From a virus: a DNA stretch of 64,000 bases. The position numbers and the translations under genes are program-made. Of the stretch, positions 7,794 to 60,705 are shown one piece after another. Within the stretch, counting starts at the first letter, position 1. Each line of letters opens with the position of its first letter. The stretch lies in UHGV virus genome UHGV-0218015. One strand, written 5' to 3'. The notes below the pieces were generated by a model. That model was given only the letters and a program-made list of their open reading frames with translations, had not been told where the DNA came from and did not search any database.

Positions 7794-7846
7794 GACTTAC
7801 TCCTTGGGGTTACACATAGGAAACGGTCACAGTCTAACTCACATTG

Positions 7847-7873
7847 AAAAATATCTTAGCTAGATATTATCTA
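7847..7873 (+). promoter_or_regulatory. promoter-like element, copy 1 of tandem duplicate
   Basis: 26-nt aaaatatcttagctagatattatcta, identical copy 79 bp downstream; contains TAGATATTATC. Confidence 0.5.
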
Positions 7874-7925
7874 TGTGATGGTTCGGTAGTTAATCATTTT
7901 AAGCTATGTGTGTTTTACGTGTATT

Positions 7926-7952
7926 CTAAAATATCTTAGCTAGATATTATCT
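7926..7952 (+). promoter_or_regulatory. promoter-like element, copy 2 of tandem duplicate
   Basis: identical 26-nt element about 50 nt upstream of ATG 8002. Confidence 0.5.
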
Positions 7953-8001
7953 ACGTGAACCAACACTACAATTGTATTAAACCTTATAAGGATTAAGTAA
8001 A

Positions 8002-46099: not shown

Positions 46100-47371
46100 A
46101 TGGCAAATTTCGCAAAAACTCGCGCCGCTCGTGAATCGATGGAAGCGGCCGATGAAGTAATCGACGGTATCAGCAACGTTGAACCGGCAGAAGAGAACCT
46201 GGACGTCCAACTTGCGGACGTTGCATCTATCGACGGTCAGCTCGATCAGCTGGAAACCGACGGTGAAACCCTGGCTGCCGATACCGAGCGTACTGAAGAC
46301 GCTATCGAACAGGCGGAAGAAGCCGTTGCTAACGGTGAAGAAATGCCGGAAGAAGCGGTTGCCCTGCACGAAGTGGCACAGGAATCCATCGCACGTCGTT
46401 GGTGCCTGGAACGTACTAAACTGGCTCGCGAATCCTATCGCCGTGGTCGTGGTATGACTGCTGCTGCCCAGGAAGGTTGGAAAGAAACCCTGAAAGATCT
46501 TTACGATCGTTTCATTCAGTTCTGTAAAGAAGTGATTGCGAAGATCAAAGACCTGAAACTGAAATATTTCAACGTCGGTAAGACTGCACAGAAACGTGCG
46601 AAGAAATATCAGGAAATGCTGCGTAAGCTGGGCAAACAGAAGAAAGATGAGATCTCTGGTGGGTTTATCACCAAGCTGTCTATCGAAGGTAAATTCGATG
46701 CTGCTGGCTCTATCGCTATTGCGAAAGAAGTTACCGCTGGTAAAGCTAAAGGTTCCATCAGTGCTCTGGAAAAACAGGCCGGTGAAGCTGTAACTGCTGT
46801 GAGCAAGGGTGACGACGATTCCTTCAAAGCAATGCGCGGCGATCAGCCTGTAGACCTGTTCGGTAAAGCAGCGTCTAAACTGCATTCTCTGCCGAATTTT
46901 GAAAAAGGCGATGCGTCTAAATTGCTGGCACTGCCAGGCAACGCGTACATTCAGGCTGGTACTAAAGAACTGGCTGGCGGCCACAAGTTCACCGCAATTG
47001 CTTTCATGAGCACCGGTGACGCTTCTGACGATAAAGACGTGAAAACTCCGTCTGTTTCTGAAATGGCTGGTGCTGCTTCTGCTCTGGAAGCAATCGGTAA
47101 AGGCTTCGAAGCCGTACTGAAAGATTTCCGTGCTTACGATTCTGAAATCGTGAAACTGCAACAGGCTGCTGAAAAAGCAACCAAAGAGCTGAATAACGAG
47201 AAAGACGAAAGCAAATGGGATGGCCTGCGTAACGCACGTCAAGCTGCTGATTGGTCTGTTAAGAACTACCAGACCCTGAACCGCGCCGTTAGCTATGTTG
47301 CTAACACCGTTATTAGCGGTCTGAATGGTTACCTGGGTGCTGGTATCGGTGCTTACGAAAAATCTAAATAA
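46100..47371 (+). CDS. abundant paralog A (423 aa); putative processed virion-internal protein
   Basis: extreme codon bias (395-codon antisense shadow); acidic N-terminal region with ARES, AQES motifs; shares RKLGKQKKDEISGGFI and C-terminal GYLGAGIGAYEKSK with downstream paralog. Confidence 0.6.
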   Translation: MANFAKTRAARESMEAADEVIDGISNVEPAEENLDVQLADVASIDGQLDQLETDGETLAADTERTEDAIEQAEEAVANGEEMPEEAVALHEVAQESIARRWCLERTKLARESYRRGRGMTAAAQEGWKETLKDLYDRFIQFCKEVIAKIKDLKLKYFNVGKTAQKRAKKYQEMLRKLGKQKKDEISGGFITKLSIEGKFDAAGSIAIAKEVTAGKAKGSISALEKQAGEAVTAVSKGDDDSFKAMRGDQPVDLFGKAASKLHSLPNFEKGDASKLLALPGNAYIQAGTKELAGGHKFTAIAFMSTGDASDDKDVKTPSVSEMAGAASALEAIGKGFEAVLKDFRAYDSEIVKLQQAAEKATKELNNEKDESKWDGLRNARQAADWSVKNYQTLNRAVSYVANTVISGLNGYLGAGIGAYEKSK

Positions 47372-47453: not shown

Positions 47454-48719
47454 ATGGCGAATTTCTACAAAAACAAAATTGCTCGTGAGTCTATGGAGTC
47501 TACCGCTACTGTAGTTCCAGACGGCATCGAACTGCCAGCAGAATCCGTAGAAGGCACTCTGGCCGATATCGAGCATGACACCAAACCGATCGAAGCCCTG
47601 GACGCTGACGCTGAACTGCTGGCAGAAGACGGCGACGAAACTGACGCACAGCTGGATGTTCTGGATGAAGCTCAGGCCGCTGCTGACGGTGAAGGTGCTG
47701 GCGAAGACGGCGAAGACCCGATGGACGCCGAAGAAGATATGCCGGACGACGCTGCGACCGCGCTGGACGTTGCTCAGGAATCTATCCGTTCTCGTTGGAA
47801 CTTCGATCACCGTTCTTCCGTTGCACACGAATCCTACGGTTCTCGTAACCGTCGCCAGGTGGCTCGTGAATCCCTGTGGGAAGACATTAAAGCCTTCCTG
47901 GGTCGTATCTGGGAATGGCTGAAAGAACAAGGCCGTAAGATCAAAGATCGTTGGCTGAAATTCTCCAACCAGGGTAAATCTATCCAGGCGCGTGCTAAGA
48001 AATACGATGAAGTTATTCGTAAGCTGGGCAAACAGAAGAAAGATGAGATCTCTGGTGGGTTTATCAAGTCTCTGTCTATCGATGGCAAGTTCGTCGGCGA
48101 TAATATTCCGAAACTGAAAGGTATCCTTAGCCAGGTTTCCACATTCTATAGCACTAAGATGCCTTCCATGGCCGCTAAAGCTGCTGAAATGGTTTCCGAT
48201 GTTACCAAAGGTAATGGTGCTAAAGTTGAAAAACTGAAAGCCGACTTTACCGAACTGGCCGAAAAAGACAGTCAACAAAACTTCAAACTCGGTAACATGG
48301 CGTTGAAAACCGAGTATGACAACGAAGGCGGTTTCAGCTCCACCTTTGTTGCAGCAGAAAATAGCGTTGAAACTAGTGTGAAAACTCCGTCTGCTGGCGA
48401 ATTGGCTAAAATCAACGCCTTCTTCAATGAAGTGGGCAAACAGATTGAGAAGAACGTTCAGGATTATCGTAAAGTCGAAAGCGCGCGGAAAACTTTTGAA
48501 GATAATATCGATAAGCTCCTGAAAGAAGTCGATAAAGTTAAGATCGACGAAAAACCGGAACTGACCGAAGCTGTACGTGCTGCCCGTCGTTACATCACCA
48601 GCATTAACCAGGCCCTGTCTCTGGGTGAGAAAGTTATTGCTTCTACTCAGAAACATCTGGCTGGCGGTCTGAACGGCTATATCTCCGCAGGTATCGCTGC
48701 TTACGAAAAATCTAAATAA
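47454..48719 (+). CDS. abundant paralog B (421 aa); putative processed virion-internal protein
   Basis: paralog of 46100..47371 (MANF.K...ARESMES, AQESIRSRW, RKLGKQKKDEISGGFI, AGIAAYEKSK); 436-codon antisense shadow; strong terminator. Confidence 0.6.
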   Translation: MANFYKNKIARESMESTATVVPDGIELPAESVEGTLADIEHDTKPIEALDADAELLAEDGDETDAQLDVLDEAQAAADGEGAGEDGEDPMDAEEDMPDDAATALDVAQESIRSRWNFDHRSSVAHESYGSRNRRQVARESLWEDIKAFLGRIWEWLKEQGRKIKDRWLKFSNQGKSIQARAKKYDEVIRKLGKQKKDEISGGFIKSLSIDGKFVGDNIPKLKGILSQVSTFYSTKMPSMAAKAAEMVSDVTKGNGAKVEKLKADFTELAEKDSQQNFKLGNMALKTEYDNEGGFSSTFVAAENSVETSVKTPSAGELAKINAFFNEVGKQIEKNVQDYRKVESARKTFEDNIDKLLKEVDKVKIDEKPELTEAVRAARRYITSINQALSLGEKVIASTQKHLAGGLNGYISAGIAAYEKSK

Positions 48720-48796: not shown

Positions 48797-48821
48797 ATTT
48801 CAGATATATATTACCTAGGTG
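48797..48821 (+). promoter_or_regulatory. promoter-like motif TATATATTACCTAGGTG (class 2)
   Basis: atttcagatatatattacctaggtg; identical 25-mer at 57053..57077; contains TATATTAC. Confidence 0.5.
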
Positions 48822-48874
48822 GGATTATACAATAATCTCTTTACGACTTGTTTATTACGTTTAGGAGAAATATC

Positions 48875-54739: not shown

Positions 54740-56058
54740 TGTCGTTTGGTCGGTTACAGAACATAGCAAACGTGCACATTGCACAAGCGGCGGGATTACC
54801 GGCCATCGACTACGTACCCCTTATTACAGTTCGTGGGGTGACGATCGACGTTTACAAAACCATGTCGATAATCCATGCCAGTAATTTCGCTCAGGATTTA
54901 ACGACTATCACACATCTCAGTGTGGTAATTCCACTGAGCCAGCAACGTATTCTTACGTCGTCGGCAGAAGGGGATTTATCAGTTAAAATCCTGATGCGGA
55001 CAATGAACAAGAAAACCATTGCTCAGCTGAACTACCGAGGAATCGTGGTTAACAATCACGATCCTGATATGGAATCGCCCACGATGTTCTTGGGTGAGTC
55101 TGATCAAAAAGGGTTGGGCGTGGTGACGCTGGAACTGATGGACGAATCGATGTGGTTCCTTCGCTGTCGGCAGGTAGGAGGGATTTACCACGAGACGGAT
55201 GGATTAAGTGTCGTTCGTGCATTACTTGCTGATACGTTACCTACTGGGGATGCACCAGAAGGTCAGTTGGTTGGTGTGGAATACGAGGAAGAAGAACAAC
55301 AGCCTTATCGTGACATTTTGATTCCCGATTCGCAAAGTTTTCTTTCGGTTTTCGATTTCATTCAGAACCGTTACGGTGTGTATAGCCAAGGATTAGGTGT
55401 CTTCTTGTATAAACACCGTTGGCATATCTTTCAGCCGTGGGACTCTAAGAAATTCTCTACGGCGAAAAAGAAACTGGTGGTAATTAACCTTCCAAGAGAG
55501 AAGGTTGCCTATTTAGATAAAACGTGTCACATTGCAGGTGACGTCATTTATCTGATTTGTGGTGGCGATGTTCACACCTTCGAAGACAAAGACGCCCTTG
55601 CGCTAAATCAGGGAACGGGTTACCGTGTGGGTTCAATCCGTGCCTTAGATGGACGTGCAAGTTCTTTCTCTCCAGGCGATGTTTCGGCAACGACGTCAGA
55701 TTCGTTTGTTTCAGCGGCAGACCCTACACAGTACCCTGGTGGTGTTGTTAATGCGCCTATTGATCCAAACGAACACTTCAGCGACACAGATAAACCCCGT
55801 CGTTCTAAGTTGGCTGCCGCTAGAGGGACACTTACCGCAACGACCTGGAACCGTTCGGCGTACGGTTTATTACAGCCGGGTATGGCAGTAAAATATCTGT
55901 ATGCGAATAATTACGGTGTATACACTCGTTATGGGACGTTGGTTGGTGAAGTTTTCCAAGCTGCCGTTGATGGCGGTTCGATGGCGTCCCCACAATTTAA
56001 TACCATTAGTCAATTGACGTTGTGGTTGACTAATGAAAAATTTACAACCGCTACGTAA
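54739..56058 (+). CDS. hypothetical protein (439 aa)
   Basis: TAATG stop/start overlap. Confidence 0.5.
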   Translation: MSFGRLQNIANVHIAQAAGLPAIDYVPLITVRGVTIDVYKTMSIIHASNFAQDLTTITHLSVVIPLSQQRILTSSAEGDLSVKILMRTMNKKTIAQLNYRGIVVNNHDPDMESPTMFLGESDQKGLGVVTLELMDESMWFLRCRQVGGIYHETDGLSVVRALLADTLPTGDAPEGQLVGVEYEEEEQQPYRDILIPDSQSFLSVFDFIQNRYGVYSQGLGVFLYKHRWHIFQPWDSKKFSTAKKKLVVINLPREKVAYLDKTCHIAGDVIYLICGGDVHTFEDKDALALNQGTGYRVGSIRALDGRASSFSPGDVSATTSDSFVSAADPTQYPGGVVNAPIDPNEHFSDTDKPRRSKLAAARGTLTATTWNRSAYGLLQPGMAVKYLYANNYGVYTRYGTLVGEVFQAAVDGGSMASPQFNTISQLTLWLTNEKFTTAT

Positions 56059-56084
56059 ATTATGTTGTCCGTAACCTAAAGGAT

Positions 56085-56891
56085 TTGTTAATGAGTAATC
56101 TACTTACTTTCAGAATGTCTGGTCAAACGTTAATTCAAATCGACAAATTCGAAGAAGAGAATTTTTCGAAACCGTCGAAGTTGTTAGAACGTTGCCTTAA
56201 TGTTATTCCTGGTGGCGAACAACGCCAGTTGGATTACATCATGGCGTCCAGTGCTGACAAAACGATTTCTGTTATCTATACCGTAGACGGTGTACAGAAT
56301 TGTCGCTTATTATCAATCGAAGAAAAAGGGACGTTAGGTCATTTGTTGTTCCTGCACGCGATCACAACTGCTGTGGTGTCTGGTGCTTTAGAAGCGCAAT
56401 ACGGTTTTGCTTATTGTTACTTCTATGCTCAGAAATTGGCTGCAGCGGTTACCCCAGGGCAACAGGAAACCTATCCTCAGTATATTGAACGTATTCTCCC
56501 TTCACACTTTAGTGAGTCGGAAGACTATGACTTCAATGCGTTTCGTTTTACCGTAGTGGGTGAAGCCCGCGACCCTGAATATACCACGGCTGTGCGTGCG
56601 GTGGTGCGCTATTCTGTTATTTCTACAGACAGTGGCACATCAAATAACTTCAATGAAGTGTATCCGGTCTTGCAGTTAGGTCCTTATGTGACCTTCAACA
56701 GCTATGTACCTTTCAGTTGCCAGCTTGTGGGTCCGCAGGATAACGATTCTATTCTTCCTGTTGCGGAAGAAAAGTCATTGTTTATTCGCGAATCCGTAGA
56801 AGCTATTAGCGATAAGCGCTTTATGATTTCTTCGAAGACGGGCATTAGCGATCCTGAAATCGCTGTAATGGATAAGATGCAAGGTCTGTAA
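56085..56891 (+). CDS. hypothetical protein (268 aa)
   Basis: ORF with AAAGGA RBS. Confidence 0.5.
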   Translation: MLMSNLLTFRMSGQTLIQIDKFEEENFSKPSKLLERCLNVIPGGEQRQLDYIMASSADKTISVIYTVDGVQNCRLLSIEEKGTLGHLLFLHAITTAVVSGALEAQYGFAYCYFYAQKLAAAVTPGQQETYPQYIERILPSHFSESEDYDFNAFRFTVVGEARDPEYTTAVRAVVRYSVISTDSGTSNNFNEVYPVLQLGPYVTFNSYVPFSCQLVGPQDNDSILPVAEEKSLFIRESVEAISDKRFMISSKTGISDPEIAVMDKMQGL

Positions 56892-56898
56892 AAACTTC

Positions 56899-56940
56899 CC
56901 GTTACCTCTGTGGGTAACGGGAATACCTTTTATTTATTCC
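56899..56940 (+). terminator. hairpin terminator (weak T-run)
   Basis: cccgttacc tctgtg ggtaacggg. Confidence 0.4.
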
Positions 56941-57052
56941 TAAACGCCACACAGAAGTCATTTCTCCATTAAGACGACTAATTACCCTTTAAAAAGAAAA
57001 TTGCGTTAGAATGCGTTTTAGAGCGTTCTAGAGGGTATATGGATTCAAAAAG

Positions 57053-57077
57053 ATTTCAGATATATATTACCTAGGTG
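57053..57077 (+). promoter_or_regulatory. promoter-like motif TATATATTACCTAGGTG (class 2)
   Basis: identical 25-mer to 48797..48821, about 50 nt upstream of ATG 57127. Confidence 0.5.
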
Positions 57078-57126
57078 AGAGTTTACGTAATACTCATTTA
57101 TCGAATACCTAATTAGGAGTTATATC

Positions 57127-57270
57127 ATGATTTCTGTAAAACACAAAAAAGCTATCTTCGCTGTTGTTATCGCTGTTGTTCTGGGTTGCCTGTACCTGGA
57201 TATCGACAAAGGCTACGACACTTGCATCGACAACGGTAATTCCGTTGCACAGTGCACTGGTCGTGGTTAA
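57127..57270 (+). CDS. small putative lipoprotein (47 aa)
   Basis: not in ORF track (under 60 aa); AGGAG RBS; MISVKHKKAIFAVVIAVVLGC: basic N-terminus, hydrophobic core, lipobox-like VLGC; short Cys-containing mature part; own promoter and terminator. Confidence 0.45.
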   Translation: MISVKHKKAIFAVVIAVVLGCLYLDIDKGYDTCIDNGNSVAQCTGRG

Positions 57271-57274
57271 TGTA

Positions 57275-57306
57275 TAAGGCACCTTCGGGTGCCCTTAATT
57301 TTTTTA
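57275..57306 (+). terminator. intrinsic terminator
   Basis: aaggcacc ttcg ggtgccctt followed by T-run. Confidence 0.65.
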
Positions 57307-57324
57307 TTAATTGGAGCATAAAAG

Positions 57325-58140
57325 ATGATTACTATTAAAGATTATTTTCCGCGTGGGCTGAGCAATGAAAACTTCGTTCCAACTGAAGACATTGCCATCG
57401 TTGCAGAGTCTAACGATAAGTCTTTTAAACTCTACTTGAGTACGGCAGCAGGAAAATCTACTCTTATCCTTCGTGAACCTGAAGTGATAAGCATCTGCTC
57501 GTTTAGGGGCGGTGTAGAAGGAACGATTAACTGGTTGAAATCCAGAATGCATCGTTTACTTATCGTGAATACCGATCCTACGATTCGATTACAGCAATTG
57601 AAATCGTTGAATGAAGTTATCGTCGGATTATTGGAACATGAAACGTTCGGTAATGCTGAGATTGCGGAAGCGATTAAATCTGTAGAACTAATCGAGTGGA
57701 GTGATATCGAATACGAACGTGCTGCGTTATTCGCAATGCACGGTGACGATAATCCCGTTGTGTTTGCACAAACGTTGGATAATGTTACCGTGACGGCACG
57801 CGTATTGTTCGGCTTGCAACGTGTTGAGTTTGAACTGAAACACGTTTATGTAAGTAATACCCCAGAGATGGTGGAAACGTTGACTCGTGCGTTCGCTTAC
57901 CCGTTAGACGGAGAATGGGAACAGCAGATTAATGAAGCGTTAGGCGCAATGCTGTTCTTAGCAGGCACACTAAGGAAAGAAGAGAAATTAGAAGGTCGTG
58001 TTTATCCAGAATACGATTTTGTTTGTGAAGAATGTGGAGCACAGTATCAAATACGTGTTCCTTTAACCGGCCTGACAATCCCGAAAGCCAACGTGGAATG
58101 TAAAGAATGTGGCCATGTCCAATACGTAGCGACTAAATAA
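57325..58140 (+). CDS. hypothetical protein (271 aa) with C-terminal zinc-ribbon motif
   Basis: C-terminus CEECGAQYQ...CKECGH (CxxC...CxxC). Confidence 0.5.
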   Translation: MITIKDYFPRGLSNENFVPTEDIAIVAESNDKSFKLYLSTAAGKSTLILREPEVISICSFRGGVEGTINWLKSRMHRLLIVNTDPTIRLQQLKSLNEVIVGLLEHETFGNAEIAEAIKSVELIEWSDIEYERAALFAMHGDDNPVVFAQTLDNVTVTARVLFGLQRVEFELKHVYVSNTPEMVETLTRAFAYPLDGEWEQQINEALGAMLFLAGTLRKEEKLEGRVYPEYDFVCEECGAQYQIRVPLTGLTIPKANVECKECGHVQYVATK

Positions 58141-58146
58141 AAGCAA

Positions 58147-58190
58147 CCCCTAATCCCGAAAAGGATTAGGGGTACACTTTATTTATTTTC
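58147..58190 (+). terminator. intrinsic terminator
   Basis: cccctaatcc cgaaaa ggattagggg followed by T-rich tract. Confidence 0.6.
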
Positions 58191-58197
58191 GCAAATT

Positions 58198-58281
58198 CAA
58201 CAGCTTGGATTAAATAAAAGGTTTAAACCTTCTAATAATCGACGAGTACAAATCTTCACCGAAAGGAGAAGTAACTACTAA
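58198..58281 (+). pseudogene. 3' remnant of a small paralogous gene (no start codon)
   Basis: encodes ...QQLGLNKRFKPSNNRRVQIFTERRSNY*, homologous to the C-terminus SQLGTDKRLKPSTNRFTQIFTEKRSEHY* of the 58438..58611 ORF; no in-frame ATG. Confidence 0.4.
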
Positions 58282-58313
58282 ATAAAATAAAGGGGTGCTG
58301 TCACACCCCTTAT

Positions 58314-58350
58314 CATAGCTTTAACTTTTCGAAAAGAGAAGTTAAAGCAG
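58314..58350 (+). repeat. 37-nt palindromic element, copy 1
   Basis: catagctttaacttttcgaaaagagaagttaaagcag, identical at 58715..58751; 9-bp inverted repeat ctttaactt/aagttaaag. Confidence 0.6.
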
Positions 58351-58437
58351 GGTACGCTGTAGCACCAGCGTACCCTTTACAACACCACTACGTTTCCGTA
58401 GTGGATTTCTTTAATCACCCTACAAAGAGGGCTTACC

Positions 58438-58611
58438 ATGAACAATGGTTACTACTTTACCGACAAAATGCTTGCAGAACAGAGTGCAGCAAAGACCAAT
58501 TTACAGCAACGTATCTACAAGTATAGTCAGCTCGGCACGGATAAACGGTTAAAACCGTCTACCAACCGTTTCACGCAGATATTCACTGAAAAGAGGAGTG
58601 AACACTACTAA
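58438..58611 (+). CDS. small protein (57 aa), member of local paralog family
   Basis: not in ORF track; MNNGYYFTDKMLAEQSAAKTNLQQRIYKYSQLG...; preceded by 37-nt element and RBS. Confidence 0.4.
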   Translation: MNNGYYFTDKMLAEQSAAKTNLQQRIYKYSQLGTDKRLKPSTNRFTQIFTEKRSEHY

Positions 58612-58714
58612 CAAATAAAGGAGAGGCGTGTCAGCGCCTCTCCTCCTCGTACAGTAACCTGCCGAGATGGTGGTCGTAGGTATAATAAAAAAGGGGTGGT
58701 GAAGCACCCCTTTT

Positions 58715-58751
58715 CATAGCTTTAACTTTTCGAAAAGAGAAGTTAAAGCAG
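58715..58751 (+). repeat. 37-nt palindromic element, copy 2
   Basis: identical to 58314..58350; followed by a different perfect 9-bp hairpin. Confidence 0.6.
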
Positions 58752-58837
58752 CAGAGACTGGCGGAACAGTCTCTGCTGTACGGTGTCAACACATAAAGTT
58801 GTTGACGTTTTTACAACATTACGAAAGGTAATGAAAA

Positions 58838-58999
58838 ATGAACGAATATCAAATACAGATGTTCAATACCGCGATGCGAAATCGTGAAAAACAAATTCAG
58901 TTTAACCAACGCATGGACGAATATGTTCGTCTCGGCCTCGTTGCGGCACCGAAAACGGTTAACAACCACAATGTTCAGCAACCACCTCTAAGGAGATAA
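58838..58999 (+). CDS. small protein (53 aa), member of local paralog family
   Basis: not in ORF track; MNEYQIQMFNTAMRNREKQIQFNQRMDEYVRLG...; similar to 58438..58611 product. Confidence 0.4.
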   Translation: MNEYQIQMFNTAMRNREKQIQFNQRMDEYVRLGLVAAPKTVNNHNVQQPPLRR

Positions 59000-59142
59000 G
59001 TTACTAACTAATAAAGGGGGTGGTAGCAACACCCCCTACTTAGTTCGGTAGTTGTTTTCCGTTCATAATTAATAGCCTTCTGTTTTTTTTTGCTTTTCGA
59101 GACGCATAAGGGGTTATAGGGGGGAGCCGAAGCTCCCCAGAC

Positions 59143-60705
59143 TCAAAAGAGTTCGTCACCCATGCCGCCGGTAAATACGTTAATCGACGAGGCTGTTACA
59201 GTTTCTTCTTTATCACAATCCCATGGCAAAATGCCAACATCACGGAAAGGTATTACAGTATAATGATAAGCTTCTTTGGTATCAATAATGGTGCGGTGTT
59301 TACCGCGTTGTACTTCTAAATAGCTGTGACCGTTGACGACACGTTTGTTAAAATACATCTCACCGTCAGCTTCGTTGTCTAAGCTAGAGCAGTTGTCGTA
59401 AAGACCACGACCAGGTAAGTTCTTACAGAAACTCGCTGGGTCGAGTGCTTTTAATTTTTTGCCTTCTGGTGAGATTTGGTGTGGTGCTAACAGGAAACCA
59501 CGATTACGTACCACTTGGATGTTTCGTGCGATACGATAAATTTCTTTAATGTCGCTACCCGCAATGCCGTTACCGTGCCCTGCTTTGCTGATAGTACCGA
59601 AATAGTCTCCGCGTATTCCAGCTACATGATAACCTCGACGTTTTAAATCTAAAATCAAATCGTTCAAATAGTGAATTTTAAAATCGGAGTTTGTGTGTTT
59701 TTGGAAAATATACTCCCAACCGTTCGCCCGCATCTTACTACAGAGGTAGTCTGACATTTGTGCATTATGTGACGCTTTTTCTTCGTCAGTTGCGGTTTCT
59801 GGCGCAACCATCACCGGGGCTGTACCTTCAAAGTGTCCGTAAAGTGCCTGATACGCGTAAGCCAAGTTAACATCCAATTCGTTTTCTAAACTTAAATCTA
59901 GAATAACCGGTTGTAGATCACCTTTAACATTCGCCATCACTTTTTCTGGGGTGTTGAAAACAGGAATGCTAATAGAGAGCAATAAACTGAATAATGACTT
60001 ACAGTTAAAGGGGAGAGCAGGCATCAGCCAGAGTTCTTCGGTGATCCCTTTGTTACAACCGAGCATCTGGTTAATTGCTTTCCAGCCTGTACGCAACCCG
60101 TTCCCTGCCGCTTTCTTACTGATAGAGTCGAAAACGTGCACGAAAGGTGCTTTATTATCAGTAATCAATTCCCCTACCAGAGAAGGAATCTTATTATGAG
60201 AGCGTTCACTGAACGTGGATAAGGTATCCTTAAGGTCGTTGAGCGCCGTTTGTAAATCAACGCGCGTTTCGGTACCGTTCAGTGCGCCTAACGTACGACC
60301 CAATTTTTGTTTCAGTTGTACGCCTTGAATAGCTTGACGTAACTGAAAGTAGTATTGTGCTACTTGGCGATTAAGATGCTCGATGCGTGCTTCTGGTTCT
60401 TCTGGAATATCATCTTCCAGGAATTTGGTAATCGTATCGTATAGAGGACGTATTTGCGTAGTGGCCAGTTTCAAACGTTTCATGACGTTTGTGTGGTCGT
60501 AAGGCATACCGCCGTCTATGATGGATGTGATGATATCCTTGATTTCGACGAGGGCGGCACGTTCGTCACCTTCCTCTGCGTAATCAGGAAGCTTAGCCTC
60601 TAACAGCACTTTTCTTATGATGTCGTGGTCCTTTTCAGGATCGGTCAGAAGACTTTCAGCGTATAATGTGGCTAAGGCGGTTATCAACATCATTTTGTTA
60701 TTCAT
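59143..60705 (-). CDS. hypothetical protein (520 aa)
   Basis: isolated minus-strand ORF; Gly-rich segment GDYFGTISKAGHGNGIAG; no confident family. Confidence 0.5.
   Translation of the reverse strand: MNNKMMLITALATLYAESLLTDPEKDHDIIRKVLLEAKLPDYAEEGDERAALVEIKDIITSIIDGGMPYDHTNVMKRLKLATTQIRPLYDTITKFLEDDIPEEPEARIEHLNRQVAQYYFQLRQAIQGVQLKQKLGRTLGALNGTETRVDLQTALNDLKDTLSTFSERSHNKIPSLVGELITDNKAPFVHVFDSISKKAAGNGLRTGWKAINQMLGCNKGITEELWLMPALPFNCKSLFSLLLSISIPVFNTPEKVMANVKGDLQPVILDLSLENELDVNLAYAYQALYGHFEGTAPVMVAPETATDEEKASHNAQMSDYLCSKMRANGWEYIFQKHTNSDFKIHYLNDLILDLKRRGYHVAGIRGDYFGTISKAGHGNGIAGSDIKEIYRIARNIQVVRNRGFLLAPHQISPEGKKLKALDPASFCKNLPGRGLYDNCSSLDNEADGEMYFNKRVVNGHSYLEVQRGKHRTIIDTKEAYHYTVIPFRDVGILPWDCDKEETVTASSINVFTGGMGDELF

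What the first reader, a model, noticed from the sequence alone, without database searches (positions are those of the whole stretch)
57053..57306. Small lipoprotein gene as a stand-alone unit behind a TATATTAC motif
A 47-codon ORF missed by the ORF track has a strong RBS, an N-terminal signal peptide ending in a lipobox-like VLGC, and a short mature peptide with further cysteines. It has its own promoter-like element (identical to the one at 48797) and its own terminator. Small phage lipoproteins expressed early are classic superinfection-exclusion or receptor-masking factors (for example T5 Llp).
Basis: inference. Interest (0 to 1): 0.5.

Follow-up and report, generated by a model that had tools for sequence, protein, structure and literature searches.

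The report
Small conserved jumbo-phage envelope peptide gene
This is a real 47-codon early gene of an SPN3US-like jumbo phage, encoding a tiny membrane-tethered peptide with a disulfide loop facing the periplasm; it belongs to a catalogued family of unknown function, and its "lipoprotein" cysteine is present in fewer than half of its relatives.

Summary
An ORF at 57127-57270 (47 aa) sits behind AGGAG. A 36-nt promoter-type repeat (57043-57078) precedes it and a GC hairpin plus T-run (57278-57305) follows it.

The window is an uncultivated SPN3US/Machinavirus-like jumbo phage. The ORF is the syntenic orthologue of SPN3US gp66 (phrog_8574, unknown function). It is under purifying selection (pN/pS 0.14-0.49).

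The promoter 25-mer is exact in seven related phages. It resembles the AR9 virion-RNA-polymerase early consensus. In SPN3US the motif class precedes non-structural operons, including both non-virion RNAP operons. Early expression is therefore likely but inferred.

The lipoprotein reading is only partly supported:
- Cys21 passes a permissive PROSITE-type rule but fails the strict lipobox.
- Only 19 of 44 distinct family members have Cys there; the rest have V, T, S or A.
- When Cys is present it is always in that column, with A/G at -1 in 18 of 19.

What is invariant is a C-terminal C-x9-C loop ending in TGRG in most members.

Best reading: an N-in/C-out envelope mini-protein that shows a disulfide loop in the periplasm. 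The anchor may be a helix or a lipid, varying between lineages. There is no similarity to T5 Llp. Superinfection exclusion is untested. The stand-alone architecture is specific to this lineage. Modest interest.

The parts
57003..57032 (+). Three tandem 10-nt units (GCGTTAGAAT GCGTTTTAGA GCGTTCTAGA) just upstream of the promoter. Possibly a regulator-binding or upstream promoter element; function unknown.
   Evidence: Read directly. Similar units lie at the syntenic place in SPN3US, ChrisDB, Caitlin, pEa9, Asesino, phiEaH2, Wellington and Huxley, but not at the 48787 promoter copy. Conserved in related IMG/VR contigs.
57043..57078 (+). Promoter-type element: A-rich stretch, then TTTCAGATATATATTACCTAGGTGA (57054-57078), with TATATTAC at 57063-57070. 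By analogy the transcription start is G57077.
   Evidence: One of six + strand copies of a 36-nt repeat family in the window. The 25-mer is exact in 7 related phages at the syntenic site. It resembles the AR9 early consensus AAATATATATTAT-(6N)-G (PMC5312081). In SPN3US the motif class gives 23 hits against 4.2 in shuffles, 22 of them on the + strand. These lie upstream of non-structural operons, including the nvRNAP genes gp34-35 and gp76-77.
57077..57126 (+). Predicted 50-nt 5' UTR with AGGAG at 57115-57119, 7 nt before the ATG.
   Evidence: Sequence. The start point is inferred, not measured. A 5' hairpin that begins at the start G is clear in most related phages but weak here (-2.7 kcal/mol, z -0.3).
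57127..57270 (+). CDS of 47 codons plus TAA. Residues 1-8 are a basic n-region (K5, K7, K8). Residues 9-24 are hydrophobic. The Cys21 codon is at 57187-57189. Residues 25-47 are the periplasmic tail, with Cys33 (57223-57225) and Cys43 (57253-57255).
   Evidence: Full-length match to phrog_8574, E=3.4e-23. Purifying selection. AlphaFold2 gives helix 4-35, a turn, then helix 40-44, with mean pLDDT 79.8.
57278..57305 (+). Intrinsic terminator: GGCACC-TTCG-GGTGCC stem-loop, CTTAA, then T7.
   Evidence: scan. A hairpin with the same TTCG loop and CTTAATTTTTT tail follows the orthologue in Huxley and pEa6. Conserved in four related IMG/VR contigs.

Best explanation
The unit is a real, clade-conserved small gene: the orthologue of SPN3US gp66, family phrog_8574.

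Expression (inferred). It is probably transcribed early by the injected virion RNA polymerase, from a strongly conserved AT-rich promoter starting near G57077. In this phage lineage its own terminator insulates it from downstream genes.

Product and topology (inferred). The 47-residue product enters the inner membrane with its basic N-terminus in the cytoplasm. Its last ~20 residues sit in the periplasm. There, the two invariant cysteines (C33 and C43, C-x9-C) most likely form a DsbA-made disulfide. This would staple a helix-turn-helix loop ending in the near-invariant TGRG carboxy-terminus.

Anchor (open). The tether differs between lineages:
- Most members have an uncleaved signal-anchor helix, or an SPase I-type A-x-A/G site.
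- In Cys21-bearing variants, including this one, the same position forms a weak lipobox. These may instead be lipid-anchored after Lgt/LspA processing. I put that at about 45% for the window protein.

Function (inferred). The conserved working part is the periplasmic loop, which presumably binds a partner conserved across the clade or across Enterobacterales. My preferred but unproven role (about 25%) is early modification of the infected envelope against secondary infection by related phages. That would work like T4 Imm or Sp rather than like the receptor-masking T5 Llp.

Shown here: gene reality, family membership, synteny, motif conservation and the Cys21 polymorphism. Inferred: early timing, topology, disulfide, anchor mode and function.
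For: Gene reality and family:
- ORF, RBS and terminator are present.
- Orthologues sit at a syntenic position, between the gp64/gp65 homologues and the DnaB-like helicase, in Seoulvirus, Machinavirus, Erskinevirus, Wellingtonvirus and Derbicusvirus.
- Full-length phrog_8574 match.
- pN/pS 0.14-0.49 with near-saturated pS. Only synonymous changes in near-identical contigs.

Protein features:
- C33, G37, S39 and C43 are invariant across the 21 aligned sequences, and Y30, N36 and TGRG are at least 90% conserved. C-x9-C is present in all 44 distinct sequences.
- Basic n-region plus an uncharged run of 15-22 residues in all members.
- AlphaFold2 predicts a continuous helix 4-35, a turn, then helix 40-44, mean pLDDT 79.8.

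Cys21:
- The column is C in 19, V in 10, T in 5, S in 4 and A in 3 of 44 sequences.
- Cys never appears elsewhere in the hydrophobic segment.
- Position -1 is A/G in 18 of 19 Cys-bearing members.
- It is polymorphic within Machinavirus and within Wellingtonvirus.

Promoter:
- Exact 25-mer in 7 phages.
- Similar to the AR9 early consensus. The review states that such AT-rich motifs near -10 mark early vRNAP promoters in RNAP-encoding jumbo phages (PMC7598289).
- The SPN3US census is enriched, strand-coherent and upstream of the nvRNAP operons and other non-structural genes.
Against: - No transcript, protein or phenotype data exist for any family member; no paper held mentions SPN3US gp66.
- The start site and the early class rest on analogy with AR9 and phiKZ, not on data for this clade.
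- I could not run SignalP or LipoP, so helix anchor, SPase I cleavage and SPase II lipidation are not separated.
- AlphaFold2 on a 7-sequence alignment of a 47-mer is weak evidence, and I could not measure the Cys-Cys distance.
- If Cys21 variants are lipidated, residue +2 (L, S, A or G) would normally send them to the outer membrane in Enterobacterales. That location differs from helix-anchored relatives, which is awkward for a single shared mechanism.
- The functional guess has no direct support.
Confidence: 0.5

Rival explanations
1. The window protein is a bona fide Lgt/LspA-processed lipoprotein that is expressed early. It acts as a superinfection-exclusion or receptor-masking factor in the manner of T5 Llp or Cor.
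For: - K5, K7 and K8, a 12-residue h-region and VLGC at residues 18-21 pass a permissive PROSITE PS51257-type rule.
- Cys recurs only in this column and follows A/G in 18 of 19 cases, which fits selection for a modifiable Cys.
- Lipidation would leave an even number of free cysteines (C33 and C43).
- UniRef auto-labels the Kwan/Wellington homologue 'Lipoprotein'.
- The promoter is early-type.
Against: - The strict lipobox [LVI][ASTVI][GAS]C is met by 0 of 19 Cys-bearing members, because Leu sits at -2 rather than -3.
- 25 of 44 homologues lack the Cys, so the conserved function cannot need lipidation.
- No similarity to T5 Llp or Cor in tblastn against 50,697 phage records at E<=10, nor in PHROGs or Pfam.
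- The periplasmic motif is near-invariant across phages of five host genera, unlike receptor-specific masking proteins.
Confidence: 0.15
2. The N-terminal 20 residues are a cleavable signal peptide in the whole family. SPase I would cut after A-x-A/G where residue 21 is V, S, T or A. SPase II would act where residue 21 is Cys. The active product would be a ~25-27-residue periplasmic disulfide peptide, either soluble or lipid-tethered, not an integral membrane protein.
For: - Position -1 is A, G or S in 34 of 44 sequences.
- Position -3 is A, V, T, L, I or G in all 44, at one aligned column.
- That column is exactly where Cys appears in the other members.
- The n-region and total length of 20 are typical of Gram-negative signal peptides (sequence).
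Against: - The uncharged run continues 4-7 residues past the putative site, for 15-22 residues in total (median about 18). That is more like a transmembrane helix.
- AlphaFold2 shows no break at residues 20/21.
- Several members have T, V, I, L or F at -1.
- Small residues in a helix can equally reflect helix-helix packing: A9, A12, A16 and G20 lie on one face.
- The sequences are related by descent, so column agreement overstates the support.
- No predictor could be run.
Confidence: 0.25
3. It is a lysis-timing component: a holin or antiholin-like factor, or a small spanin-type lipoprotein.
For: The protein is small, with one hydrophobic helix and periplasmic cysteines. o-Spanins are small lipoproteins with disulfide-forming cysteines, and T4 RI is a small N-terminally anchored periplasmic protein (established knowledge).
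Against: - No partner i-spanin or holin gene is adjacent. The neighbours are a gp65 homologue and a 271-aa zinc-ribbon protein.
- In SPN3US the annotated endolysin gp198 lies about 110 kb away.
- The early-type promoter differs from what lysis genes would be expected to use.
- The Cys is not conserved.
- The sequence is not proline-rich.
Confidence: 0.07
4. The ORF is a chance open frame inside a non-coding spacer or small-RNA locus.
For: It is short (47 codons) and lies between a promoter and a terminator, as an sRNA would. An antisense open frame of 57 codons overlaps it.
Against: - The protein is conserved while synonymous sites are near saturation (pS 0.41-0.84, pN/pS 0.14-0.49).
- There are 44 distinct homologues with invariant Cys, Gly and Ser positions.
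- Strong RBS.
- Only sub-threshold Rfam hits: best overlap 13 bits against a gathering score of 84.
- The antisense frame is broken in Huxley, pEa6, Wellington and EarlPhillipIV.
Confidence: 0.02

Closest known systems
SPN3US gp66 (SPN3US_0066) and its orthologues, e.g. ChrisDB gp82, Asesino gp84, Wellington gp81, Huxley gp81; PHROG family phrog_8574 (unknown function)
   Same: - Full-length HMM match (E=3.4e-23).
- 45-53% identity and the same length (45-50 aa).
- Same synteny: after the gp64 neck protein and gp65, and before the DnaB-like helicase.
- Same upstream 25-nt promoter element.
- Same invariant C-x9-C; the TGRG end is shared with all but the Derbicusvirus-type members.
   Different: - The window protein has Cys at residue 21, where SPN3US has Val.
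- In the window the gene is monocistronic with its own terminator.
- In SPN3US, gp67 is translationally coupled to it and gp68-70 follow (gp67-69 are absent from the window). In ChrisDB it is the third gene after the promoter.
T5 Llp and the Cor proteins of T1 and phi80 (small early lipoproteins that block the FhuA receptor)
   Same: Small size, an N-terminal signal sequence with a possible lipobox, further cysteines, and probable early expression. This comparison rests on established knowledge of Llp, not on a test here.
   Different: - No detectable sequence similarity.
- The lipobox Cys is absent from most of the family.
- The periplasmic motif is conserved across phages of different hosts, rather than matched to one receptor.
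T4 Imm and Sp (spackle): early, envelope-located superinfection-exclusion proteins conserved within the T4-like clade
   Same: Clade-wide conservation, inferred early expression, and a periplasm-facing small protein. Such a conserved partner could be the incoming phage's own ejection machinery. This is a functional analogy from established knowledge.
   Different: No sequence similarity. It is much smaller (47 aa, against 83 and 97 aa). It has a single helix plus a 20-residue disulfide loop. No functional data exist.
Early (virion RNA polymerase) promoters of RNAP-encoding jumbo phages: AR9 AAATATATATTAT-(6N)-G and the phiKZ AT-rich early element
   Same: - An ATATATATTA core followed 6 nt later by G.
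- Over-represented and strand-coherent.
- Located upstream of non-structural operons, including the nvRNAP genes.
   Different: - The conserved element here is longer, about 25-36 nt with a fixed CCTAGGTGA tail.
- It comes in two sub-types: AGATATATATTACC and AGATAGATATTATC.
- I found no transcript mapping for this clade.

Membership tests
Bacterial lipoprotein precursors (Lgt/LspA substrates) | Basic n-region: K/R within the first ~7 residues | tested here: met
   K5, K7 and K8.
Bacterial lipoprotein precursors (Lgt/LspA substrates) | Uncharged h-region of about 7-22 residues ending at the lipobox, with Cys between positions 15 and 35 | tested here: met
   A9-G20 (12 residues), Cys at position 21.
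Bacterial lipoprotein precursors (Lgt/LspA substrates) | Lipobox, permissive PROSITE PS51257-type rule: {DERK}(6)-[LIVMFWSTAG](2)-[LIVMFYSTAGCQ]-[AGS]-C | tested here: met
   A regex implementation passes the window protein, and among the 20 sequences scanned five homologues also pass (ChrisDB, Caitlin, pEa9, Wellington, P0005). UniRef labels P0005 'Lipoprotein'.
Bacterial lipoprotein precursors (Lgt/LspA substrates) | Lipobox, strict consensus [LVI][ASTVI][GAS]C, with Leu-type at -3 and a small residue at -2 | tested here: not met
   VLGC has Leu at -2. 0 of 19 Cys-bearing family members match.
Bacterial lipoprotein precursors (Lgt/LspA substrates) | The lipid-modified Cys is conserved among orthologues | tested here: not met
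   Cys in 19 of 44 distinct sequences; V, T, S, A, I, W or L in the rest. Polymorphic within two genera.
Bacterial lipoprotein precursors (Lgt/LspA substrates) | Diacylglyceryl modification and globomycin-sensitive cleavage | not testable with these tools
   Needs experiment. SignalP 6 and LipoP were not available either.
T5 Llp / Cor receptor-blocking lipoproteins | Sequence homology to Llp or Cor | tested here: not met
   tblastn against 50,697 phage records at E<=10 hits only SPN3US-like phages. The only PHROG is phrog_8574. No Pfam or NCBIfam hit.
T5 Llp / Cor receptor-blocking lipoproteins | Blocks the phage's own outer-membrane receptor | not testable with these tools
   Needs adsorption and infection assays.
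Spanins (o-spanin type) | Outer-membrane lipoprotein gene embedded in, overlapping or adjacent to an i-spanin gene within a lysis cassette | tested here: not met
   The neighbours are a gp65 homologue and a 271-aa zinc-ribbon protein with no i-spanin features. The SPN3US endolysin is about 110 kb away.
phrog_8574 (SPN3US gp66 family) | Full-length match to the family HMM | tested here: met
   E=3.4e-23, residues 1-47 against profile positions 1-47 of 47.
phrog_8574 (SPN3US gp66 family) | Syntenic position downstream of the gp64/gp65 homologues and upstream of the DnaB-like helicase | tested here: met
Jumbo-phage early (vRNAP) promoters | Highly conserved ~10-nt AT-rich element centred near -10, with a purine start a few nt downstream | tested here: met
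   ATATATATTAC-(6N)-G compared with the AR9 AAATATATATTAT-(6N)-G. General statement in PMC7598289.
Jumbo-phage early (vRNAP) promoters | Over-represented motif upstream of presumed early operons, on the coding strand | tested here: met
   Window: 8 hits, all on the + strand, against 1.75 in shuffles. SPN3US: 23 hits (22 on +) against 4.2. The hits precede nvRNAP gp34-35 and gp76-77, the DHFR cluster and a regulator gene; none precedes capsid or tail genes.
Jumbo-phage early (vRNAP) promoters | Transcription within minutes of infection, independent of new protein synthesis | not testable with these tools
   I found no transcriptome for this clade.

The most novel reading that the evidence does not exclude
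The gp66 family would be the clade's dedicated early envelope factor: a ~25-residue disulfide-closed periplasmic loop that blocks secondary infection by related jumbo phages, or otherwise conditions the envelope. Evolution would have switched its tether repeatedly between a transmembrane signal-anchor and an N-terminal lipid anchor through single changes at one residue. That would be a natural experiment showing the loop works from either membrane.
Probability: 0.15. Interest if true: 0.55.

Novelty: new member of a known kind. Interest (0 to 1): 0.3.

Why it matters
Nucleus-forming and related jumbo phages have many small early genes of unknown function. Few of their envelope-directed factors are known.

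This family is present in every sequenced member of the SPN3US/Machina/Erskine/Wellington/Derbicus group that I examined. It is driven by one of the best-conserved promoter copies. It has an unusually constrained 15-residue periplasmic loop. It is therefore a tractable candidate for an early phage-envelope interaction, such as exclusion, envelope conditioning or lysis control.

The polymorphism between Cys and Val/Ser/Thr at the putative processing site offers a simple test of whether the mode of anchoring matters.

As it stands the gene is an already-annotated 'hypothetical protein' family. The case for the specific Llp-like function is weak.

Tried and rejected
- The 8-mer TATATTAC as a signal on its own was rejected: 3 hits against 1.87 expected. 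The evidence lies in the 25-36-nt element.
- The word-indexed protein search with the single 47-mer found only a 98% identical Logan protein. The exhaustive representative search found 6 clusters plus one weak repeat protein. The profile search found 36.
- Pfam, NCBIfam and PDB sequence searches gave nothing meaningful. The best PDB hit was the CRF receptor ectodomain at E=0.056, which I treat as chance.
The 7-sequence run gave only helices. I did not run a fold search, because a 47-residue helix-turn-helix would give meaningless matches.
- Rfam on 56800-59200 gave only sub-threshold hits.
- Literature: no paper held mentions SPN3US gp66. The J Virol infection-proteome paper is not held. Searching for the motif string gave no phage paper among the 15 best-ranked of 463 hits.
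- SPN3US gp67, gp68 and gp69 have no homologue in the window. gp70 is probably represented by the 271-aa zinc-ribbon ORF, but tblastn does not detect this.
- The CR5 and EarlPhillipIV rows of the pN/pS table are invalid, because their C-termini are two residues shorter and my ungapped comparison was out of register.
- My first identity check against the IMG/VR loci was faulty. I redid it.
- The context of the repeat protein P0007 was uninformative: a 1.9-kb contig.
Full report
**1. What is in the sequence**

Reading 56700-57700 confirms the anatomy.

- A hairpin terminator at 56896-56923 follows the stop of a 268-aa gene (56085-56891).
- A 235-nt spacer comes next.
- AGGAG lies at 57115-57119, and an ATG-initiated ORF at 57127-57270 encodes MISVKHKKAIFAVVIAVVLGCLYLDIDKGYDTCIDNGNSVAQCTGRG (47 aa).
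- A GGCACC-TTCG-GGTGCC hairpin at 57278-57293 is followed by CTTAA and seven T.
- The next gene starts at 57325.

TATATTAC is at 57063-57070. As a bare 8-mer it is not enriched: 3 hits against 1.87 expected. It is, however, the core of a much longer repeat. The repeat finder gives a 36-nt family with six + strand copies, at 7843, 7923, 16363, 21539, 48787 and 57043. The copies at 48798 and 57054 agree at 24 of 25 positions.

**2. Where the window comes from, and whether the ORF is a gene**

Megablast of 56000-58500 against phage genomes matched only about 40-100 nt. That stretch is exactly the promoter element, found at 90-97% identity in most records (30 at 90-95%, 11 at 95-99%), mostly in intergenic DNA of SPN3US-like Salmonella phages and Erwinia jumbo phages.

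tblastn with the 47-mer found 61 records of that clade and nothing else, even at E<=10. A divergent homologue used as query raised this to 66 records, adding Cronobacter CR5 and the Derbicus and Erskine groups.

The SPN3US orthologue is gp66 (SPN3US_0066, 47 aa, 'hypothetical protein'). Synteny is preserved: gp64, gp65, spacer with promoter, gp66, small genes, then the helicase on the other strand. gp64 is an essential head-tail joining or neck protein (PMC5105663). In the window the same order holds:

- a 439-aa gene matching phrog_3245;
- a 268-aa gene matching phrog_8163;
- the 47-aa ORF;
- a 271-aa zinc-ribbon protein;
- a DnaB-like helicase at 59143-60705 on the - strand;
- the major head protein.

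The 47-mer matches phrog_8574 (unknown function) end to end, E=3.4e-23.

Four IMG/VR contigs of 150-225 kb encode the identical protein. Their five CDS substitutions are all synonymous, and promoter, UTR and terminator are conserved.

Against more distant orthologues, the last 20 codons show pS 0.41-0.84 but pN only 0.10-0.21, giving a ratio of 0.14-0.49. The antisense open frame is not preserved in several phages. Rfam finds nothing above threshold. So this is a real protein-coding gene.

**3. The protein family and the lipobox question**

I collected 44 distinct sequences from the representative search, the profile search and the phage loci.

All share these features:
- a basic N-terminus, often HK(R/K);
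- an uncharged run of 15-22 residues;
- a polar tail, (D/G)Y(N/D)xC-x-(D/A)NGNS-x-x-x-C, ending in TGRG-stop in most members.

C33, G37, S39 and C43 are invariant across the 21 aligned sequences, and C-x9-C is present in all 44.

The residue aligned with the window's Cys21 is C in 19, V in 10, T in 5, S in 4, A in 3, and I, W and L once each. By phage:
- SPN3US, SPAsTU and pEa29 have Val.
- Huxley has Ser and pEa6 has Val.
- Asesino and phiEaH2 have Val.
- CR5 and EarlPhillipIV have Thr.
- ChrisDB, Caitlin, pEa9 and Wellington have Cys.

The state is therefore polymorphic within Machinavirus and within Wellingtonvirus.

The window's VLGC passes a permissive PROSITE PS51257-type rule. None of the 19 Cys-bearing members fits the strict [LVI][ASTVI][GAS]C, because Leu sits at -2. 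So lipidation cannot be what the family conserves.

The Cys is not random either. It never occurs elsewhere in the hydrophobic segment. It follows A or G in 18 of 19 cases. Modification would leave exactly two free cysteines. UniRef already auto-labels the Kwan/Wellington homologue 'Lipoprotein'.

The same column also fits an SPase I (-3, -1) pattern in most non-Cys members: AFA|V, AFG|S and ALS|V. Three anchoring or processing modes therefore stay open: an uncleaved signal-anchor, SPase I release, and SPase II lipidation.

The long uncharged run favours a helix anchor for the family as a whole. So does an AlphaFold2 model with an unbroken helix 4-35, a turn at NGNS, and a short helix 40-44 (mean pLDDT 79.8, shallow alignment).

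I estimate about 45% that the window variant is truly lipidated.

**4. The promoter**

TTTCAGATATATATTACCTAGGTGA is exact at the syntenic site in SPN3US, ChrisDB, SPAsTU, Caitlin, pEa29, pEa9 and pEa6. It has 1-5 changes in Huxley, phiEaH2, Asesino, Wellington, CR5, EarlPhillipIV and pEa11.

It closely resembles the experimentally mapped AR9 early consensus AAATATATATTAT-(6N)-G(+1) (PMC5312081). The review of jumbo-phage RNAPs states that each RNAP-encoding jumbo phage has such an AT-rich motif centred near -10 of its early operons (PMC7598289). By that register the start would be G57077, giving a 50-nt leader.

I tested the class assignment by scanning the whole SPN3US genome for AG[AC]TA[GT]AT[AT]TTA[TC] with at most one mismatch. 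There were 23 hits against 4.2 in shuffles, and 22 were on the + strand.

Mapped onto the annotation, the hits sit upstream of:
- gp5, gp22, gp30 and gp31;
- gp34, which heads the gp34-gp35 operon, where gp35 is nvRNAP beta-prime;
- gp55, which heads a cluster containing dihydrofolate reductase;
- gp66;
- gp76 (two copies), which precedes the nvRNAP beta fragment gp77;
- gp99, gp101 (a putative regulator), gp112, gp125, gp135, gp180, gp209, gp221 and gp249.

None lies before capsid, sheath or tail genes.

In the window, the 21539 copy likewise precedes the 745-aa RNAP beta homologue. In phiKZ the nvRNAP genes are early (PMC10914365). Early transcription by the injected polymerase is thus well supported by inference, though unmeasured in this clade.

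**5. Is it a stand-alone unit?**

Only in some lineages.

- In SPN3US, SPAsTU, pEa29, pEa11, Asesino, Wellington and phiEaH2, the stop overlaps or abuts the start of a conserved 60-aa gp67 homologue (TAATG or TAAGATG) and there is no terminator.
- In ChrisDB, Caitlin, pEa9 and others, one to four genes lie between the promoter and the gene.
- In Huxley and pEa6, as in the window, a TTCG-loop terminator with the same CTTAATTTTTT tail follows directly.

The window lacks gp67-69 altogether. In two of the related IMG/VR contigs the gene after the terminator is a different one.

The promoter-gene-terminator cassette is real here, but it is a lineage-specific trimming of a variable early operon. Of that operon, gp66 was present in every phage of the clade that I examined.

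**6. Mechanism**

Shown:
- it is a real gene;
- it is conserved across the clade;
- its sequence is of the envelope-targeting type;
- it has an invariant C-x9-C loop;
- residue 21 is variable;
- its promoter is of the early type.

Inferred:
- N-in/C-out insertion, from the positive-inside rule;
- a DsbA-formed C33-C43 disulfide closing a helix-turn-helix;
- a conserved binding partner.

The loop is almost identical in phages of Salmonella, Erwinia, Cronobacter, Escherichia and Proteus. A receptor-specific masking role like Llp's therefore seems unlikely. A partner conserved in Enterobacterales, or in the clade's own ejection apparatus, is more plausible, as with T4 Imm and Sp. I give superinfection exclusion about 25%. 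Lysis control and other envelope effects remain possible.

**7. Comparison and novelty**

By sequence it is a member of phrog_8574 (SPN3US gp66), annotated 'hypothetical protein' in more than 60 genomes, with no Pfam, NCBIfam or PDB relative. It is not a member of the Llp/Cor family or of the spanins.

What this analysis adds:
- the anchor-site polymorphism;
- the link to the early promoter class;
- the lineage-specific monocistronic layout.

This is a new member of a known but uncharacterised kind. Interest is modest.

Noticed in passing
window 57077-57095 and 48821-48839; related loci L001, L009, L011-L017: In 11 of 14 related phages a 6-9-bp hairpin begins exactly at the predicted start G of ..GTGA. 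The stem sequences differ: GAUAGA/UCUAUC, GAGAGUUGA/UCAACUCUC, GAACGA/UCGUUC and GAGAGA/UCUCUC. z-scores reach -5.6. The hairpin is weak at the window's 57054 copy and 8 bp long at the 48798 copy. It could be a 5'-terminal stabilising stem of early mRNAs, or part of promoter recognition.
   Followed up: partly
window 57003-57032: Three tandem 10-nt units (GCGTTAGAAT, GCGTTTTAGA, GCGTTCTAGA) sit immediately upstream of this promoter copy. Comparable GCGTT..AGA units occur at the syntenic site in SPN3US, ChrisDB, Caitlin, pEa9, Asesino, phiEaH2, Wellington and Huxley, but not at the 48787 copy. This may be a locus-specific regulator site.
   Followed up: partly
window 58146-59040: There is about 0.9 kb with no ORF over 60 aa. 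It holds a 65-nt direct repeat (58286-58350 and 58687-58751, 91% identical) and six hairpin-plus-T sites on the - strand. Two small + strand ORFs (58438-58611 and 58838-58999) loosely resemble the SPN3US paralogues gp71 and gp72. The only Rfam hit is sub-threshold: ylbH at 25.9 bits against a gathering score of 50.
   Followed up: no
P0007 / L026:448-1593 (Logan SRR21621036): A 381-aa protein from an unrelated 1.9-kb contig carries four tandem copies of Y-x-x-C-I-G-N/S-G-x-S-x-x-Q-C, the same disulfide-loop motif as the C-terminus of the 47-aa protein (E=9.1e-4). The loop may therefore be a free-standing extracellular mini-module.
   Followed up: partly
window 7843-7878 and 7923-7958; SPN3US 72486 and 72684: The promoter family has two sub-types: AGATATATATTACCTAGGTGA and AGCTAGATATTATCTAYGTGA / AGATAGATATTATC. 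It sometimes occurs as tandem pairs. The window pair is 80 nt apart, before the gp22 homologue. The SPN3US pair is 198 nt apart, before gp76.
   Followed up: partly
L001:4081-4263 and the syntenic genes in L009, L011-L015: A 60-aa gp67 family (MDFSD.QFAEFL.NPR.KREWDNL...) is translationally coupled to the gp66 homologue in seven of the 14 related phages examined (Seoulvirus, Erskinevirus, Wellingtonvirus). It is absent from the window and from Huxley and pEa6, where a terminator takes its place.
   Followed up: partly
window 46100-47371 and 47454-48719: Two adjacent paralogous internal-head-protein genes (phrog_2497) share 157-nt and 57-nt DNA repeats and the same ...GAYEKSK C-terminus. The second strong promoter copy follows directly after them.
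   Followed up: no
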